Both the position numbers and the translations under genes were made by a program. Of a DNA stretch of 64,000 bases, positions 2,795 to 21,064 are shown piece after piece. The stretch's first letter is position 1. Each line of letters opens with the position of its first letter. The stretch is from Leucoraja ocellata (lineage: Eukaryota), in contig JAWMAR010000256.1 of the NCBI GenBank assembly GCA_036785375.1, positions 1,674,001 to 1,738,000 of the forward strand. The letters are read 5' to 3'. Below the pieces are notes generated by a model. The model saw only the letters and a program-made list of their open reading frames with translations, did not search any database and was not told the origin of the DNA.

Positions 2795-4781
2795 TGTTAA
2801 ACTTAAGGGTCAGACATGAGTCTAAGTTGTGAAGGAGGCTTGATGGACTGTGCGGCATGTTCTTGCTCCTTTTCTCTGTTTTTAGATGTATGTGGAAGCA
2901 TTACTGTTCATTTATAAATACATTTCCTACCCTGTTCCAAATATGCAATGTGACTCGTTAAGCCCATAGGTAACACCATGATTGGTATTCTTCTAAAAAG
3001 TATCTCTGTGAACTTCAGTAGGGGAATACTGAAATTGGCTTGTGTTACATTCATTTTGACTAGCACATTCCCGCAATGGAATCATTTTATGTAGTAAATG
3101 ACTGTAGCTACACAACTTGTAGAAAGATATAGTAATTTACAGACATATGTTTATTTATAACCCAATGCTAAATAGATTATAACATTCTGTAAGTAGCAAA
3201 TGAGAAGAAGATTCATTTTTTATATTCAAATTGAAAGCCACTGAGCAGTTTGATAATCGAAATTCAGCACCAACTTTTCAAAGCTGAACATTGGAAAATA
3301 ACTTTTGCTTAGATGTAGCCATTTTATTTTAAGCTTAGAACATGCCTCCAGGCCTATGGGCCTTTAGATTTACTTATAGAGCAACTCCGCCAAGCGAACT
3401 ATATTCGCAGTTAAGGTGAAACAAGTCTTCATTTTAAATGCAAATGGTCAGTTGAGGGAAATTTAAGAAACATAAACAAAATTACATGTATAAAATGGGT
3501 TATTTGGATGTTAGTTCATGACCGAAAAGCAAAGTTGGGGGTCATGGAGGTTTAAAATGCTGTGGGGTGAAGTTGTTCACAGTTAATGCATTGTGATGGA
3601 GTATGTAAAATAGTGTCTGAGTTATAGTCCTCTAAACTGATATATGTAATTGGCATAAAATTGAATGTACCTTGATTCACTTGTATCCCACGTGCAAACT
3701 CAATCTCATTCTTGAAATCAACATTCAATTTGAATTCAAAAGACAATCTGCTCAATCTTTACTTCACCCTCAGACCCACCCCCAATTGATCACTTCCTTG
3801 ATGCAAAATTTCATACGGAAAACTGCACACGGAAGAGAAATGAAAATTCACATTAAAAAATTGTTAACAATGCTTTGTATCCTTCCCACAAATGCACATT
3901 TATTTACAGGGACCTTTTCTAAATTATGAATGCTTCATCTCTTCTCCCAAGCATCATAATGTTTGTGTAAATGGACATGCCGCCAAATCAGGAAACCAAA
4001 AAGCAAGTTGTTTTTGCAATGATAGTAAAAGCCAGTCCTTTCAGAGTCATCATTAAAATTAAATGAATCAATTAAAGTAAGTCAAAGTAGGATTATACAA
4101 GTGCGTTCTTACCCAAAGTTCAGCTTCCTTCTGTCTACTCACTCTGCCATTAAGCAGCAACAGTTTTGCAGGCACTTCAGCAAATGAAGGAATCCGCCAG
4201 AGGTCACATGTATGGCTGTAATAATCTTAGCTAATCTTGCTGTACGTTGGGGAAGACAGCTATAGATTCTACACACAGTCTGCAAAGTTAAACCACATCC
4301 TGTTGGTTCAGCTTCTTTTTTTTTTACATAAAATATCTACAAAGAGTGTTCTTAGATATTTTTTGAACTGCATCACACATTCAGGGACTTAAATGGATAC
4401 CCTTCCTGAGGGAACATTGATTAAAGAAGGGTTTAAACCCTAATGGGCATTTTATTATTTGACAACGGGCACCTGTGGCAACTTCTCCTTTTTTTTGGTC
4501 ATATTTAGCAACCGCTGGCACAAATATTTTGCAAGCAGTAGAAAGTTCCAACCCATTAATCAAAACTGGTTCATTTTAAGAGTGCAACCTCTACTATTTG
4601 CATAAATACAAATTTTATTTTCTATTCCAGTAATAGGTTTCATCAGCTGACATGATTTGTTCTCAAAGATGTACTTAGAATTTTATTTCATGGGATTTAT
4701 AAATAGTTGGATCAACAATTCATCATCACATCATTACATCTCAAAACATAACAGATTTGCACAATAAATATTTCAATATTC

Positions 4782-5252
4782 AGCGCCGACCACAGAATAG
4801 TACTGGGTACCATCCACCGTGAAGCGTCGGATGTGGAACTGGGCCTCTGCCTGCTTGAATCACACTTCGGGCTTCAATGTCCAGAGCACAGGCTACTTCA
4901 GGGAGACAACATTCTGCTGGGATGGATTGATAGTGACCTCGGGCTGTTGAGGTTGATATTTGGCTGCGTCCATTGTTTAAATCCAAAATTCCCGTTTTGG
5001 ATCGTCGGGGTCACCAATATGGTGGGCGAATAAGGAAGCCACGTGTGGTGGAACAAAGAGTTATTTTTTGACAAAGTAAAAAGAACAGCACACACACGAA
5101 TGGGGGAAGGTTAACCCTGGGTTCATTATATGTACCAGGACACACCCCTAAATCCCGAGACAACTCCTTCCCGCCAAACCCAGTCATGTGACCCTGACCC
5201 CAACTGCCGAGGGTTCGCACAGTAAGTGGCCTAACTACCAGGTGGCACCACA
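4782..5252 (-). mobile_element. Gypsy LTR retrotransposon stub: 5' LTR, PBS and start of gag
   Basis: LTR 5252-5018 reads TGTGGTG...CACCATA. PBS TGGTGACCCCGACG at 5016-5003 is complementary to the tRNA-Trp 3' end. Decayed gag follows: MDAAK...NVVSLK*PVLWTLKPEV*FKQAEAQFHIRRFTVDGTQYYSVVGA. Confidence 0.85.
5003..5016 (-). promoter_or_regulatory. Primer-binding site (tRNA-Trp type)
   Basis: TGGTGACCCCGACG lies one base after the LTR end; tRNA-Trp ends in ...CGTCGGGGTCACCA. Confidence 0.8.
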
Positions 5253-5546
5253 ATATTCCAGAAAAATCTATATAGAGAAAGGATTTTATCAATGATTAAT
5301 TAGCAAGCGTTGGATAGACTAGGTTGTTTATGTTGAAAAGAGGTATTGGAATAGGTCTTAATGGATTAACTGTGAGTTCTCTATGTTGTAATTTGCAAGA
5401 TTCTTAATTCAGAATATATATGTTTTTCAATGCTATTCTATATTTCATGCTATTTTAATCCTAATTTCTTAAGAATGTCTTAATGAAGAAGGCAAGATTG
5501 TATCTGACTGGATTTTCAAAAGATATTTGTAATAACTCGACTGGTA

Positions 5547-5837
5547 TTAGTTTAGTTTAGAGATATGGCAAGGAAACAAGCCCTTCAGTCCACTAAGTCT
5601 ACACCAATGAACAATCAGAGTACACTAGTTCTATTCTATGCACTAGGGATAAATTTACATGAGCCAATTAACGTACAAACCTGCACATCTTGGGAATATG
5701 GGAGAAAACCAGAGCATCCAGAGCATACCCATGCGGTCAGAGGGATAAGTCTGTACAGACAGCACCTATAGTCAGGATCAACCCTGGGTCCCTTGTGCTG
5801 TAAGGCCACAACACCACACCTGCACCATTGTGTCACC
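5547..5837 (-). mobile_element. HE1-like tRNA-derived V-SINE
   Basis: A/B-box-like head, V-domain TCTGGTTTTCTCCCATATTCCCAAGATGTGCAGG and CR1-like tail with (CTAAA)n. Confidence 0.85.
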
Positions 5838-5972
5838 GCTTACTGTCTACTTCTTAATGTTGAGCATTGTTGTTGGGAGATTCTCTGAATGGAATACATT
5901 GTAATATTGCTAGCTGGTATTTTTCCCCCTCCGTTATGGCAAATGATACTGTTTCTGTGAACTGCAGCTGAA

Positions 5973-6020
5973 TAATAGACAATAGACAATAGGTGCAGGA
6001 GTAGGCCCTTCGAGCCAGCA
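5973..6020 (-). mobile_element. Ultra-short CR1 3' insertion
   Basis: (TAGACAA)n tail plus AGGTGCAGGAGTAGGCC; flanked by the direct repeat CTGAA (5968-5972, 6021-6025). Confidence 0.75.
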
Positions 6021-7841
6021 CTGAAGATAGGTCAAACAACACAATATGAAAGCAGCTAGCCAATTGTCAGATGGATTAAATCAAATTGATGCAGAGGATT
6101 TAACCTAATGTGATGCCTTCCACTGACAGAAAATTCTAAATCCTCACATAATACGTATACTATATTATGACTTTTGGTTGATACCAGATCCAATGTTATC
6201 TTTAATAATTTACAGGCCTCTAACAAAAATAATCTTTTGCAGGATGCACACTAGGATCGGCAGAACGTACGGCAAGATACGAGACTTTTGTTGCCGCCTT
6301 CTGAAGTCAGTGAAAGGCAGATTATGCAATAGTGTTGCCGTAAATATTCCAAGATTTTCATCTTCTTTCCAAGAGATTGATCGTAGTGTGATGATTGATG
6401 TCATCAAGTTAGCCTCTGCACAATTGGCTAAATAATATAAATATGCTCACTGCCTACTAACGAGGAACTATTTTGTTGGCCACATTGTTCACAAAAACCC
6501 TTTCAAACCAGTACTCTGAAAGTAGTCTCGTGAGATTAATAGAATAGGCATAAACGCTATGATGATTAATGATAATTTCTCTAAAAGTTTGACCCAATAT
6601 CCGCCTTAAGTACTTTAGGTTAAATGTAGAATATATTTTATGATAATGATATTCACTTTAAATGAGAACTATTAGTCATTTTCATTTAAATATTGCAAGA
6701 ATTGTATTCATGGTTTTTGAGTCCAATTTTCTCTTTTTCCTCACCACAGGTAATCAGTCATCATTTAAATAAAAGGAAATTAAACATAGTACATTATTTT
6801 TCCACTGTAAAATACTTTCATGATTTAGTTGCCACATTCATCTGAAAGGTATTGCGCCTAGTCAAAGTTTCAATCAGATTGGATTCCATGTTTATTTGTG
6901 TTTAAATATCACATGATTTATATAGTTTACAACAGTAATTTATTTGCATTACAGTAATCTAAGTGTTAATTGAAATATGGGCAGTGGGGCCATATTTCAT
7001 GGGTTGTATTTCAACAGCAATGTACTCCATCCTATGCTGATCTTACCAACTTGTGCCAGCACTAACATTTCTCACATAGTCCTTTTGCCAATACTACTAG
7101 TCTGGCATAGTTTGTGTGCAAAAGTCACTCCACTGATAGATTGAGCTCTTATAAGGGCACCTACATCTCAAAACTAAAAGTTCCCCATGGGCCCTGGATC
7201 AATGCCCCCCAAATTTCTATGCAAAGGTTCAGTGGAGATCTGTTTAGGGAACAATATTGCCATGTTTTGAAAAAGCTTTGTGGATGCAAGGGTAACTCAC
7301 ACCCCGAGTTGCTAAGTCAAATCATAATCATAATCATACTTTATTAGCCAAGTATGTTTTGCAACATACAAAGAATTTGATTTGCCATACAGTCATACCA
7401 ATAAAAAGCAACAAAACGCACAAAATACATTTTAACAAACATCCATCACAGTGACTCCCCCACATTCCTCACTATGATGAAAGGCAAAATAAAATTTCAA
7501 TCTCTTCCTTTGTTACCCCGTGGTCGGAGGCCTCGAGCCTTCTGTTGCCAGTGCAATCTTGGCACCCTCAACTGTTGGTCAGGTCCTCCGCATCGGGGTG
7601 ATCACGCTCCCGCATTGGGAGGATCTCAGCTTCCCCACGCCAGGTGATCGAACCTCCTGCAACTTTGGAGCTTCTCGACATCATCTCTACCCAAGACTGC
7701 GAGCTCTTCGATGTTGAAATCATAGGCCACGGTTGGAGCGTCTATCCCAAGGAAGGGATCACAGGCTCTGATGGTAAGTCCACGGCCCTGCGGTGGGGCT
7801 CAAAGTCAGTCTCGAGCAAGGCCGCCAACTCCATGATGTTA

Positions 7842-15183: not shown

Positions 15184-16535
15184 GAGTTACGATGAGGGAT
15201 TATGTGAATAGCCCGCCAGCCCGCATGCACATCAATCTTCAAAGCAGCGGTGTGAAATCACAGATAACTGTTGTTGAACTGAATATAGGAAGATTCGAGA
15301 AACTAGAACCACCAGCTGACATTTATGAGAGAGGGTTGGGAGCAGAGGGCACGTAATCCCTCATCGTAACTCCTCATAGAATAAAGATCAAACTTTAAAA
15401 TGGTAAGTTCTCGTTTAATCTTACTATTATTACTGACTTGATGACCCGATGAAATAGGTTTTAAAGATTTATCTCAAGATTTTTTCCCCTAACTTCATGT
15501 TGAAATCAGAGAGACTACGTGAAGATTTCAAAGTTCTGTGATTTCATGCCGTGAACACGAGTCCATGCGTCACACACTGCATCAGTTGACCAAGGATGAG
15601 TGAACATTAATAATGCATTCAGACAAGACATAGATATAGACATACTGCTGCTTTTTAATGAACAAATAATAATAATAATAATAATAATAGTAACCCCTCT
15701 CATCTGGGAGAAAACTATGAAACAGAACCTAAAATAGAGTTGGCAAATACCCCCGGTCTGTCAATGGGTTTGTTATAAAAGTTTGGAATGATCATTCGTT
15801 TGACCAACCTGCAGCCGCTAGGATGTGGTCCAGCAGAACGTCCAAGCTGCTGATGTTATTGCAGACCTGGTGGAGTGAGATTTGAAAATGTCAGTGTTCA
15901 CTCCTGCACAAGCCAGAACCCATTTTAACCACCTGGAGATGGTCTGTACTGATACCTTCTTATGAGGTTTTATGTAACTAACAAACATTGCTAGTTCAGA
16001 GCCTCTAAGGCTCTTAGTGACCTAACATACTGTTGTAGATGTGTGACCACACACAACCGAAGGTCCATGGGATATGCCAACAAATCTAGTTTGAGACCTG
16101 ATGCCCCTCTGCTTGAGTAAGTCATAAACATAAAATGTTATTTTGCCTGCAGATGTAACCATCCTGTCCAGTCGCAGCTTATGCAATGACTGGACCCGTC
16201 ATGCTGTAACCAGCGCCATGAGCATAACCACTTTGTAAATGAGTTTGACCAAGGACAGGGATGTAGCTGGAGTCTACCGGTGATGTGGCGTTAGCACAAT
16301 GTTAACATCCCATATCTCTGCGTACCTGGACCTGGGAGGTTTTGAGTCGAAGATACCCTTCATAAATCTGGATATCAGAAGGTGAGATCCGACAGAGTGG
16401 GTCCCGCTCTCCGCAGCAAATATGATGAGGGCACGTTTGGCACAGTTAATGGCACTATAACTTAATTTTTGTCAAAGACCCATTCGAAAATGAACTTCAA
16501 GTCGTCAGTCATCCATGCCGTATTATATGTAACCA
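15184..16535 (-). mobile_element. DIRS-like tyrosine-recombinase retrotransposon, 3' part
   Basis: Decayed YR frame plus a 23-bp inverted repeat (15184-15206 and 15350-15372), as expected for the terminal-repeat/ICR region. Confidence 0.85.
15760..16480 (-). pseudogene. DIRS tyrosine recombinase (frameshifted)
   Basis: Manual translation gives KLSYSAINCAKRAL, GSHLLISRFMKGIFDSKPPRSRYAEIWDVNIVL, VVMLMALVTA*RVQSLHKL, HKKVSVQTISRWLK, FKSHSTRSA, AAAGWSN, FYNKP. The catalytic HxxR, W and Y motifs are present. Confidence 0.85.
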
Positions 16536-16640: not shown

Positions 16641-18309
16641 CACATTGAACAATTATGCACAGTAGGGTTGCCAAGTACAGAATAATCTTTGATGTCATGT
16701 TTGTACTTCAAAAGGCCTCTGATGTGGCCAATAATTTGGTAATTTTCCATTGCTGCCAGCAGGAAATGGTATTCAATCAAAAGAAAGAGATGAAGGTGAC
16801 TGAATTGTTCCATTACTAACACAGATGACAAAAATAATTGGTTGTTCTTTAGCAATTCTGTACAATTGTACGCGACTGATGATTTAAAAAAAAAAAAACT
16901 GGCATGCCTATAAGCCTCTGAAATTTAGAATAATAAAGAATAATTTTCAAGATACCAGGCAATGAACAGCAAGTACATAATTCGAACACAATAGCTACAA
17001 ACATTTAAACAAACTGTTGCTCGTAGAGTACATGCTCTTAAAATGTGATTGGCCTTTCGATGATAATGCACTGTAGTTAGTCATCTTTATCCAGTCCTGA
17101 TCAAAGATCCTATAACAGAGCAAGATAGGCCACTCCTATGAAATGCAATGGGCTGACATGTAGTACACAACGGAGTGGAACGTGGGCATTTTCTTTTGTT
17201 CATTTCAGTAACCGGAGCCTACCCAACCCGACCCGACTCGCAGTGTAATCAACGTTGCGAGGGAATGGTTTGTGAGTGTGATATATGGTTAGATTCATAA
17301 TTCTGTTAGTTCATCATTCTGTTAATTCTTGTTAAAGAATAAAATGTTTATACATTTTGACTCTGGTAATTTTCTTTTTTAATGTTTTTTTTAATAATTT
17401 CTTTTTAAATGGCTCATATGCTGTGTTTGAGTTGATTTTAAATTACACTTGCACTTCACAACTGCAGTATTTGGGAAAATAATAGCAATATGAAAATTCC
17501 AGTTGCTCTAGCCCTGGAATGTTACTTAATGTTTTTGTGTCTATGGAGTTATTTCTCAACAATAAAATGGGTCTGTTCTTCCCAATAGCCAGAGAGTGGA
17601 ATGAGATCTGTCTGTAATTTGTTTTGAGCAAGATTTACAAATGATGTATAACTTAAGGATGGTTTTATTCAGCGAGCATACAACTGATTAGATTTTGCTC
17701 GAAAGAACACACATACATAAATGTGATATAGATGTACAGTATATAATAATATAACACACACATTTACATTTCTTCCAACTTTTATATCCAATGATGAACT
17801 TTATTTCAAACTAGACAAGGGACAACATTAAATTAAAAAAACATTGTAAACCTCCCCGCAACTTCAGTTTGGTGTCTCGGCTGTGCTGATCTGGGCCAGA
17901 CTCCCCGCACGCTGTGGAAGGAACATCTATCGCTTTTATTGTGATTTATTTCTCTTTTTAACACTGAATATCTGATAACGACACATTAGCAGCATATGGA
18001 ACCAATATTGCACCAACCCACTCAATTTTAAATAATTCATAATAGAAATCCATTAAGATGGTTAACACTTTATTTCTGACAAGCATAATAAGATTTACAT
18101 AATTCACATTATTCTGTGCGCAAGATATACAGGGTTGCAGTGTTCAGCATATCAGCTAACCAGTGAAAGTGTTGTACAATTCAACATATGTAACATAATG
18201 GTAGCCCCACCCTTCTTACACCAAAGAGCAAAACGTCCAACGTAGATACAATAATAAATAAATCGCCATTTGCATTGTTTTGAGCTGCTAACAAATCACA
18301 ATTTCACAC

Positions 18310-18398
18310 AATGAACATAAGACGGCAGTCATTTGACAAATACTGCAGTTCGGTGTAGGAGATCATGTCGGCGAGTATTCTGGACCCATTGTCGACAT
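18310..18398 (-). pseudogene. THAP zinc-finger exon 2 (decayed)
   Basis: TTTCAG|A acceptor, then (R)CRQWVQNTRRHDLLHRTA/YLSNDCRL/CSL. The phase matches exon 1 (AG+A = Arg). Confidence 0.78.
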
Positions 18399-18401
18399 CT
18401 G

Positions 18402-19760
18402 AAATAACAGAGAGGTAGAAAGTAAATGCTCTTGAGAATAGTTTTACAAGGATGTTGCCATGAGGCAGCTAGTACTCCTGCACCTATTCCAGCACTATCT
18501 AAATGACATTAAGTTGGGAAAAGGGGAAGTACAACAGGATCTGGGGTTCCTTGTACAACAGTCTATGAAAGTAAGCATGCAGGTACAGCAGGCAGTGAAG
18601 AAAGCGAATGGCATTTTGGCCTTTTTAACAAGAGGAATTGAATATTGGCTCAAAAGGTCCTTCTGCAGTTGTACATAGCCCTAGTGAGACCACACCTGGA
18701 GTATTGTGTGCAATTTTGATCCCCTGATATGAGGAAGGACATTCTTGCTATTGAGGGAGTGCAGCGTAGGTTTACAATGTTAATTCCCAGGATGGCGGGA
18801 CGGTCATATGCTGAGAGAATGGAGCAGCTGGGCTTGTACACTCTGGAGTTTAGAAGGATGAGAGGGAATCTTATTGAAACATATAAGATTGTTAAGAGCT
18901 TGGACACACTAGAGGCAGGAAACATGTTCTGATGTCGGGGGAACCAGGGGCCACAGTTTAAGAATAAGGAGTAAGCCATTTAGAATGAAGATGAGGAAAC
19001 ACTTTTTCTCACAGAGAGTGGTGAGTCTGTGGAATTGGAGGCAGGTTTTCTGGATGTTTTCAAGAGAGAGCTAGATAGGGATCTTAAAAGTAGGGGGATA
19101 TGGGGAGAAGGCAGGGGATATGGGGAGAAGGCAGGAACGGGGTACTGATTGTGGATGATCAGCCATGATCACATTGAATGGCGGTGATGGCTCGTAGGGC
19201 CAAATGGCCTGCTCCTGCACCTATTGTCTATTGTCTATTGAGGCTTCGACTGTATCTGAGACAAAGGGGAGCACCCAGCTCTAAGATCTGAACTATAGTA
19301 TATAGTGATCTGTATATATCACTATAGTATATAGTGGGCTGTATATCTGTCTATAGTATATAGTGGTCTAAGATCTGAACTATAGTGAGAGTTCGGGCAG
19401 ACTTAATAACATTCTCAGTATTAAACAGAGTCAATATGTTCTTATTCTGCATTAAATAACAGAGAGGTAGAAAGAAAATGCTCTTGAGGAGAAGATTTTT
19501 ACAAGGATGTTGTCATGAGGCCTCGACTGTATCTGAGACAAAGGGGAGTACCCAGCTCTAAGATCTGAATTATAGTGAAAGTTCGGGCAGACTTAATAAA
19601 ATTCTGTACAAAACAGAGTCAATATGTTCTTATTCTGCATTAAATAACAGGGAGGTAGAAAGAAAATGCTCTTGAGGAGAACATTTTTACAAGGGTGTTG
19701 CCATGAGGACTCGACCATCTGAGCTCAATGATCTAACTACAGTGAGAGATTGAACAGATT
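18402..19760. repeat. 188-bp tandem repeat (about 3 copies) in the transposon intron, with an internal ~29-bp CTATAGTATATAGTG expansion
   Basis: AAATAACAG(A/G)GAGGTAGAAAG starts at 18402, 19454 and 19642; the first copy is split by a CR1. Confidence 0.85.
18467..19238 (+). mobile_element. 5'-truncated CR1 inserted in the THAP intron
   Basis: ORF2 peptides (VQQAVKKANGILAF, RKDILAIEGVQRRF), (CTATTGT)n tail and TSD TGAGGC (18461-18466, 19239-19244). Confidence 0.92.
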
Positions 19761-19806
19761 AAATACAATTTTTAATATGCCACAGAAGTAATAAATGTTT
19801 TCTTAC

Positions 19807-19914
19807 CTTTCCTCCTTAATGGGGAACCTGAAGAAAGATGTTGCGTCCCCTACATTGCCGATTGGAGCAATTTACCACAGAGCAGAATGCAACACTAGTA
19901 GACGTGGACGCCAT
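19807..19914 (-). pseudogene. THAP zinc-finger exon 1 of a transposase (one frameshift)
   Basis: MASTSTSVAFCSVVNCSNRQCRG/ATSFFRFPIKEE(R) ends at an AG|GTAAGA donor; CxxxxC and FFRFP are THAP signatures. Confidence 0.8.
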
Positions 19915-20652
19915 GGCTAAAGTGAAGATTCTTTGGATTTGAGAGCGGAGGCGGAAGCAAAGATCCTATCTTTGGGTGGAAGCAAGATGGCGGAAGCAAG
20001 ATGGCAGAAGCTGATTACGAAAATGGGTCCTATAATTACCCATGAGTCTGCCCATGACCGTACCACGTGTTTTGCGTAGGAGTTGTCCATCTTGCTCCGC
20101 TAAAGGATCTTTGGCCCTGATTGAATGTCAGTTCACCATGTGCTTGTCCCCAAAATGTCCAGTAGATGGCTCTGTAAACCAATTAATATTATGAAGAACA
20201 TTTGGGAAGCTGTAAATCATATTGAACAGATTTCTTAAATTATGAAAAATGGTAAAACAAAAACAGTGAACATTTTGAAATCAAGGGGGTACACTTAAAG
20301 CCTTATTAGGAGAGTTGAAAACAATGAAGGGGGAGTTGAAATTGAGGAAGAGATGTTCTGTATGTCCAGTGGACCAACATATCCACCATATATACTGCTA
20401 CAAGGCAGCTGCAGCAGAGGATGCCAATGACAGGAGACAAATCCTGAGACACTTGCAATATTATTATACTGCAATATTGCAATACACTTGCAAGACTATT
20501 AGAAGTTCAAGGACTTCAAATTAATGCATCTTCAAATGTCGAATCCCACCTAATCAGCCATAAATTACTGGTAAACACATCCCCATTCCTTGATGAACCA
20601 AGAATCTTTATCAATACCATCTGATCTAAAATTATCATGCATCACAGCTTCT

Positions 20653-20953: not shown

Positions 20954-21064
20954 ACACAATCAGATAATATGACAGAATGTAGTTGGCCATTTTTATCCAG
21001 TCCCGATTGAATGCCAGTTCATCATGTTCAGCAAATAAATACTGCTATTGCTGGAAACTAGAAA

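What the first reader, a model, noticed from the sequence alone, without database searches (positions are those of the whole stretch)
17102..20113. Intron-containing THAP-domain TIR transposon (P-element-like) in a cartilaginous fish
Seen: 37-bp TIRs starting CAAAG, an 8-bp TSD, and a THAP domain split by a phase-2 GT-AG intron (19806-18399). YY1-like CCGCCATCTT motifs lie between the TIR and the ATG. Near 17690-17620 a decayed segment, YAR*IKPSLSYTSFVNLAQNK, loosely recalls the LxxPS C-terminal motif of P transposases. The catalytic core is absent, so this is an internal-deletion derivative. Established: P transposases and THAP9 have an N-terminal THAP and make 8-bp TSDs, but THAP12-type hATs also carry THAP. 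Inference: a P-superfamily lineage in batoids, where to my knowledge such elements are poorly characterised. Deleted copies retaining only THAP parallel the KP repressor architecture.
Basis: partly seen in the sequence, partly recalled or inferred. Interest (0 to 1): 0.7.

Follow-up and report, generated by a model that had tools for sequence, protein, structure and literature searches.

The report
Skate P-element family, broken copy
This is a broken, internally deleted copy of an abundant P-element-type jumping gene in what is likely a skate genome, and it cannot encode the repressor-like protein first proposed, although intact parent elements lie elsewhere in the genome and were likely mobile recently.

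Summary
Real and P-type. The 3,012-bp element has 39-nt TIRs (32/39) and an 8-bp TSD (7/8), confirmed by an empty paralogous site nearby. Its TIR pattern occurs 3,239 times genome-wide (control 0). Full-length partners bounded by the same or related TIRs carry THAP, HTH, split RNase H and GTP-binding domains, keep all three catalytic residues and have no hAT domain. Five copies have intact 881-927-aa ORFs over three exons. Intron 2 is GC-AG; both introns are spliced in RNA from a sister subfamily. 1,757 end-to-end TIR remnants look like excision scars. The copy's THAP is frameshifted and cut before its last two zinc ligands, so it is not KP-like. The 'LxxPS' segment is non-coding DNA about 735 nt past the stop. 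A second amplified derivative also lacks an intact THAP (19 of 20). The window's own splice junction was not seen in the visible RNA rows. Earlier notes of this scan already reported P-type elements and scars elsewhere in this genome; six literature searches found no description. Placement relative to THAP9 was not tested.

The parts
17094..17101 (.). 8-bp target-site duplication, copy at the element's 3' end
   Evidence: 7/8 identical to 20114-20121
17102..17140 (+). 3' terminal inverted repeat (39 nt)
   Evidence: 32/39 to the 5' TIR
17141..18318 (-).
   Evidence: collinear at 70-83% with DNA downstream of the stop codon in full-length copies
18319..18398 (-). remnant of exon 2 (THAP second half), frameshifted and cut by the internal deletion at 18319/18318, before the last Cys and His ligands
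   Evidence: same breakpoint in 13 of 20 sampled relatives
18399..19806 (-). intron 1, GT-AG, phase 2 (212 nt in unexpanded copies, 1408 nt here)
   Evidence: homologous intron spliced in subfamily C RNA
18514..19240 (.). LINE-like repeat fragment inside the intron, also present in many sister copies, so older than their spread; CR1-type label is recalled, not from a library
18402..19708 (.). three copies of a ~65-nt intron segment (18402-18466, 19454-19521, 19642-19708) from local duplication
19807..19914 (-). exon 1 (THAP first half), 108 nt instead of 110, frameshifted, stop at codon 33
19984..20006 (-). subterminal CCGCCATCTT motif (19993-19984) and one variant (20006-19998); YY1 or transposase site, untested
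   Evidence: three tandem copies in full-length L110
20075..20113 (-). 5' terminal inverted repeat (39 nt)
20114..20121 (.). 8-bp target-site duplication, copy at the element's 5' end
20978..21027 (+). paralogous empty target site with a single copy of the 8-mer
   Evidence: 88% over 50 nt, E 2e-12 within the window

Best explanation
The element is a non-autonomous, internally deleted copy of a P-superfamily DNA transposon with a broken THAP reading frame, likely inserted here by a transposase supplied by a full-length relative. A deletion in an ancestral copy joined the middle of exon 2 to the 3' non-coding arm, removing the THAP's last zinc ligands and the whole catalytic gene (shown). That derivative kept both ends, gained a LINE fragment in intron 1 and spread as a passenger (shared breakpoint and separate TSDs shown; mobilisation in trans inferred). 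Full-length parents have three exons and need a GC-AG second intron to put THAP in frame with the HTH, RNase H and GTP-binding domains (frame and splicing shown). The enzyme likely cuts like Drosophila P transposase, with long staggered ends that leave 28-38-bp end-to-end scars and an 8-bp duplication (scars shown; their origin by excision inferred). This copy likely makes no functional protein and does not regulate the family.
For: 8-bp TSD perfect in 48 of 88 two-ended loci, and 0 of 88 for 6, 7, 9 or 10 bp. 3,239 exact TIR-pattern hits, control 0. 15 of 40 loci fetched around PF21787 hits are TIR-bounded 5.1-6.9-kb elements collinear with the window element at both arms, at 5 distinct target sites. 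Pfam RNaseH_N, GBD and RNaseH_C over cut-off in 4 of 4 partner ORFs, HTH over cut-off in 2 of 4, no hAT family. The only PDB hit is Drosophila P transposase 6P5A, E 1.6e-41, with D230/D303/E531 equivalents kept (residues per PMC7776569). 5 of 62 loci give intact spliced ORFs; dN/dS 0.14-0.15 in the core between subfamilies B and C. GC-AG joint in 140 reads from 70 starts plus three contig sets. 1,757 scars, TSD at least 7/8 in 14 of 15 checked. Frameshifts and breakpoint shown directly.
Against: The direct parent was not found: the intact copies are only 70-91% like the window element, and the closest long relative (85-87% at the 5' end) is one decayed insertion amplified with its flanks and lacking the 3' arm within 10 kb. 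28 of 88 two-ended loci have a TSD match of 6/8 or less (best end pair chosen per locus). The window's own 18398/19807 joint was not among the 15 joints shown, 117 hidden. Scars cannot be told from tiny mobile hairpins by sequence alone. No transposition assay. One short relative (L068) and one C derivative (L200) do keep a whole THAP ORF.
Confidence: 0.92

Rival explanations
1. KP-like repressor element: deleted copies spread while encoding a THAP protein that blocks transposase binding.
For: L068 (1.9 kb, both TIRs) keeps a 106-aa complete THAP ORF; L200 keeps a 179-aa one. In runs X1 and X2 the longest exon-1 contigs have no gap, and the deletion junction is also present; the two cannot be phased. 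The two criteria for such repressors are given in PMC12393704 (passages).
Against: The window copy and 13 of 20 relatives lack the last two zinc ligands. The amplified C derivative is frameshifted in exon 1 in 19 of 20 copies, and the only exon1-exon2 joints listed for raw-read run X24 carry that one-base loss (85 reads).
Confidence: 0.04
2. THAP12-type hAT element that happens to share an 8-bp TSD.
For: NCBI names two skate relatives of this THAP 'THAP2-like' and '52 kDa repressor of the inhibitor of the protein kinase-like'.
Against: Those same proteins are 86-92% identical to the N-terminus of the P transposase of subfamily C. Partners carry only P-type domains.
Confidence: 0.01
3. The copy arrived by segmental duplication, not by its own transposition.
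For: This happens in the family: 21 of 21 long A-type loci share one left flank and 10 B copies share one TSD. A 99% copy of the window locus lies on C1726.
Against: The window has its own TSD and an empty paralogous site 860 nt away; sister copies have different flanks and TSDs.
Confidence: 0.03

Closest known systems
Drosophila melanogaster P element and its non-autonomous derivatives (PMC7776569, passages; PDB 6P5A)
   Same: 8-bp TSD, TIRs of about 31-39 nt, THAP-HTH-split RNase H-GBD order, catalytic D/D/E, intron-containing gene, many internally deleted copies, end remnants at likely donor sites.
   Different: Vertebrate host; three exons rather than four ORFs; second intron is GC-AG; elements 6-12 kb rather than 2.9 kb; the commonest long scar is 38 bp (19+19, or 20+20 sharing two bases) against a 17-nt overhang in Drosophila.
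Zebrafish Pdre2 / zfTHAP9 (PMC10983969, first seventh of the text read; PMC7776569 passages)
   Same: Vertebrate P-like family with 8-bp TSDs and internally deleted copies.
   Different: Pdre has 13-bp TIRs, distant subterminal repeats, about 50 copies and one full-length gene that excises but did not integrate in assays. Here: 34-39-nt TIRs, over 3,000 ends, at least five intact ORFs in two subfamilies. Orthology to THAP9 not tested.
KP repressor element (PMC7776569, PMC12393704 passages; the 1998 primary paper was not held)
   Same: One internal deletion amplified to many copies; 5' part of the gene kept; the C derivative is transcribed and spliced.
   Different: KP encodes an intact 207-aa THAP protein; the window lineage and 19 of 20 C-derivative copies do not encode an intact THAP.
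Molluscan P transposases (Batillaria attramentaria, Elysia marginata)
   Same: Nearest named proteins, 34-41% identical, same Pfam domains.
   Different: Sit outside the well-supported clade of the skate proteins plus four unnamed proteins P0001-P0004 (quick tree).

Membership tests
P superfamily | Terminal inverted repeats and 8-bp TSD | tested here: met
P superfamily | N-terminal THAP domain | tested here: met
   PF05485 over cut-off in exon 2 of L110 and in skate relatives; broken in the window copy
P superfamily | Split RNase H with D230/D303/E531 equivalents, in partners sharing the ends | tested here: met
P superfamily | GTP-binding insertion domain and HTH | tested here: met
   PF21788 in 4 of 4; PF12017 over cut-off in 2 of 4, below in 2
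P superfamily | Long staggered cleavage (17 nt in Drosophila) | tested here: inconclusive
   1,757 end-to-end remnants; of the first 50 listed, 11 are 28 bp, 16 are 33, 13 are 38 and 3 are longer; fits long overhangs of about 19-20 nt but is indirect, and the pattern cannot see arms under 14 nt
P superfamily | GTP-dependent transposition | not testable with these tools
   needs biochemistry
hAT / THAP12-type | hAT dimerisation domain or DUF4371 in the autonomous partner | tested here: not met
   0 of 4 ORFs at E 0.1
KP-like repressor element | Transposase interrupted | tested here: met
KP-like repressor element | Intact DNA-binding THAP domain | tested here: not met
   window copy; sister copies; C derivative
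KP-like repressor element | Spliced transcript of this copy | tested here: inconclusive
   swamped by LINE reads, joint not in the 15 shown; 36 reads carry the window-type deletion junction, from any copy
KP-like repressor element | Represses transposition | not testable with these tools
   needs an assay
THAP9 / Pdre lineage | Clade with vertebrate THAP9 | not tested
   no named THAP9 among the 120 listed homologues (most are unnamed), so none in the tree
THAP9 / Pdre lineage | 13-bp TIR with distant subterminal repeats | tested here: not met
   TIRs are 34-39 nt

The most novel reading that the evidence does not exclude
Skates carry a still-active P lineage separate from THAP9 and zebrafish Pdre, with a fully working transposase that cuts about 19-20 nt inside its ends. 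Its output is gated by a weak GC-AG intron whose retention gives a 128-aa THAP-only repressor, a vertebrate counterpart of Drosophila IVS3 control, while the derivatives that spread best are those that lost THAP coding. For: GC donor in 27 of 27 and 10 of 10 copies read without assuming it (many are copies of one insertion); protein P0163 is exactly this read-through product. Against: the intron is efficiently spliced in the four runs laid (X2: about 4 against 109 in depth).
Probability: 0.15. Interest if true: 0.8.

Novelty: new member of a known kind. Interest (0 to 1): 0.5.

Why it matters
The copy itself is ordinary dead repeat DNA. The family matters more. In the papers read, zebrafish is the one vertebrate with mobile-looking P elements, and its enzyme excised but did not integrate. 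Here a vertebrate holds intact, spliced P transposase genes under purifying selection, young insertions at separate sites and well over a thousand likely excision scars. That offers a natural vertebrate P enzyme to assay and a genomic record of where it cuts. It also shows that skate gene models named THAP2-like or THAP12-like are P-transposon pieces.

Tried and rejected
hAT/THAP12 reading: rejected. Decayed C-terminal LxxPS motif: rejected, non-coding. KP reading of the window copy: rejected. I first took the transcribed C derivative for a KP-like element (179-aa product computed from L107); fetching 20 real copies showed the exon-1 frameshift in 19, so I dropped it. A canonical GT donor 4 nt after the GC donor would be out of frame and was not among the joints listed. 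The run search listed no holder on record as RNA; spliced joints in the laid data are what is used. Laying reads on the window was swamped by LINE reads and gave no verdict on its junction. The ESM Atlas gave no result. L139, checked as a possible domesticated THAP9, is a decayed piece of the same lineage. A sequence look-up in earlier findings returned nothing. The careful tree did not finish; only the quick tree is cited (P0001-P0060 plus five skate proteins, 64 of 65 rows kept). L151-L158 and L160 were fetched but not analysed. No structure or complex was predicted.

Full report
Observation. The element spans 17102-20113 and reads on the minus strand. The ends match at 31/37 or 32/39 positions. 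The flanks are GTCCTGAT and GCCCTGAT. A paralogous empty site at 20978-21027 matches the joined flanks at 88% over 50 nt and holds the 8-mer once. Exon 1 (19914-19807) is 108 nt against 110 in full-length copies and stops at codon 33. Exon 2 (18398-18319) has a second frameshift and ends at a deletion junction just before the THAP's last Cys and His. Neither translated piece hits Pfam. The intron holds a LINE-like fragment (18514-19240, repeated several times in the window) and local duplications.

Copy number. The THAP end gave 1,696 candidates, of which 40 were scored. A 27-nt degenerate TIR pattern has 1,576 + 1,663 exact hits, control 0. Of 20 hits fetched at 10 kb, 13 share the window's breakpoint, 2 continue through the THAP and in 5 exon 2 was not found. 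The 13 are 92-95% identical to the window over the exon 2 to 3' segment. Over 88 two-ended loci an 8-bp TSD is perfect in 48 and at 7/8 in 12; lengths 6, 7, 9 and 10 are perfect in none (best end pair taken per locus). The 50 distinct targets lean to a palindromic GTC..GAC; its likeness to the Drosophila preference is recalled, not checked.

Partners. PF21787 matched 137 of 150 scored candidates out of 216. Ten lie about 1.4 kb behind THAP-end hits, but these belong to one decayed insertion amplified with its flanks (21 of 21 share the left flank). Of 40 further loci, 15 are TIR-bounded 5.1-6.9-kb elements (subfamily B, 5 distinct target sites, one site repeated 10 times) collinear with the window element in both arms at 70-91%. 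Subfamily C has a related 34-nt TIR; 9 of 11 loci have both ends (8.0-11.9 kb), 6 of 9 with a perfect TSD, each at its own site, about 97% alike. Four partner ORFs carry RNaseH_N, GBD and RNaseH_C over cut-off, two also the HTH, and none a hAT family. The only PDB match is Drosophila P transposase, with the equivalents of D230, D303 and E531 kept (residues from PMC7776569). The direct parent of the window lineage was not found.

Gene structure. Exon 1 is 110 nt, intron 1 GT-AG phase 2, exon 2 269 nt, intron 2 GC-AG phase 1, exon 3 the rest. The GC donor stood in 27 of 27 and 10 of 10 copies located by other motifs. Five of 62 loci give uninterrupted spliced ORFs of 881-927 aa (L104, L105, L107, L110, L112; many others were dropped because a motif was not found). 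Between B and C, dN/dS is 0.14-0.15 in the core and 0.24-0.27 in the THAP (Nei-Gojobori). Retaining intron 2 gives a 128-aa THAP-only product; the GT donor 4 nt downstream is out of frame.

RNA. Four runs were laid on C copy L107. The joint 3280>4393, which slides by two to the GC-AG sites, has 140 reads from 70 starts in raw-read run X24 (5% of the run read) and stands in contigs of X1, X2 and X5. Intron 1 is spliced in 85 reads. Intron 2 itself is thinly covered (X2 about 4 against 109). NCBI models from Amblyraja radiata and Leucoraja erinacea read through the same junction, and a Logan protein (P0163) is the read-through form of subfamily B. X1 contigs cover the catalytic region from 4513 to 6700 with only a 3-nt gap. 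In X24, 125 reads jump from 4542 to the 3' arm. This is a genomic deletion, present in 21 of 30 loci fetched (130 candidates), at separate sites, TSD perfect in 14 of 18, median identity 98%. It looked KP-like, but 19 of 20 copies are frameshifted in exon 1 and the X24 exon-1 joints carry that loss. Against this, the longest exon-1 contigs of X1 and X2 have no gap, and cannot be phased with the deletion. Thirty-six X24 reads carry the window-type junction. On the window itself the lay was swamped by LINE reads; the 18398/19807 joint is not among 15 joints shown, 117 hidden. The runs are of a coded organism holding up to 93% of the sampled words.

Scars. Of the first 50 listed, 11 are 28 bp, 16 are 33, 13 are 38 and 3 are longer; 14 of 15 checked have a TSD of at least 7/8. 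This fits repair after a long staggered cut, as the 17-nt cut of Drosophila P (PMC7776569), here of about 19-20 nt. Excision origin is inferred.

Host and relatives. Nearest named relatives of the THAP are skate proteins, 86-92% identical to subfamily C; the species was not determined. For the catalytic exon the best of 241 hits are unnamed (54-72%); the named ones are molluscan at 34-41%. A quick tree groups the five skate proteins with four unnamed ones at SH-aLRT 99. No THAP9 was in the set, so the relation to THAP9 and Pdre is open.

Literature. Searches listed no paper on P elements in cartilaginous fish (listings and abstract starts only). Read: PMC10983969 (first seventh), PMC7776569, PMC12393704 and PMC4350176 (passages; the superfamily figure of the last is not visible), PMC10824691 (term search, no hits). 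Repbase, Dfam and supplements of skate genome papers were not seen and may already list the family. Earlier notes of this scan report P-type elements, scars and young parents on other pieces of this genome.

Verdict. A dead non-autonomous copy of a large, likely recently mobile skate P family. New member of a known kind; interest 0.5, carried by the family rather than by this copy.

Noticed in passing
P0166, P0167 (Leucoraja erinacea NCBI models named TRIM55-like / uncharacterized): About 250 residues of subfamily-C P transposase (THAP, coiled coil, start of HTH; 86% identical) fused to a B-box and TRIM coiled coil: a candidate transposase-host fusion, or a gene-model artefact.
   Followed up: partly
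L191-L210 (for example G000:C2767:22857-32856): Young 5.4-6.6-kb deletion derivative of subfamily C, one shared breakpoint, separate TSDs, transcribed and spliced, THAP frameshifted in 19 of 20.
   Followed up: yes
L068 (G000:C37:8816014-8826013) and L200: The only two sampled deleted copies with a complete THAP ORF (106 and 179 aa): true KP-like candidates.
   Followed up: partly
L081-L100, L079: One decayed P insertion amplified at least 21 times with identical flanks, followed by a broken retroviral pol-like remnant; observed only.
   Followed up: partly
L109, L115, L119, L127-L132, L140: Ten subfamily-B copies share one TSD and flank, so they were amplified by segmental duplication; some then lost exon 2.
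   Followed up: partly
L105 and L200 right flanks: Both have a mismatched TSD and the same 8 bases to the right of the element, suggesting recombination between copies or hybrid-end transposition.
   Followed up: no
L117:5978-6632 and L134:7424-7940 (oriented coordinates): Window-type derivative pieces nested inside subfamily-C elements; C elements also carry a 44-nt piece like the A/B 5' subterminal region in their 3' arm.
   Followed up: no
L110 intron 2 (element positions about 1610-1880 and 2130-2400): Long inverted repeat inside intron 2 of subfamily B, probably a nested MITE; seen by eye.
   Followed up: no
window 17072-17101 + 20114-20141 and 20978-21027: The target sequence is a locally duplicated 50-nt segment that translates without a stop in one minus-strand frame at both copies; possibly decayed duplicated exons.
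   Followed up: partly
G000:C1726:24893-28206 (L002): 99% copy of the window element's 5' 1.8 kb; haplotype or recent duplication.
   Followed up: no
window 15184-15372: 23-nt inverted repeat pair, 96% complementary, 143 nt apart; possible small MITE.
   Followed up: no
G000:C392:1439486-1621901 (L139): Cluster of decayed, tandemly repeated pieces of the same P lineage without detected TIRs.
   Followed up: partly
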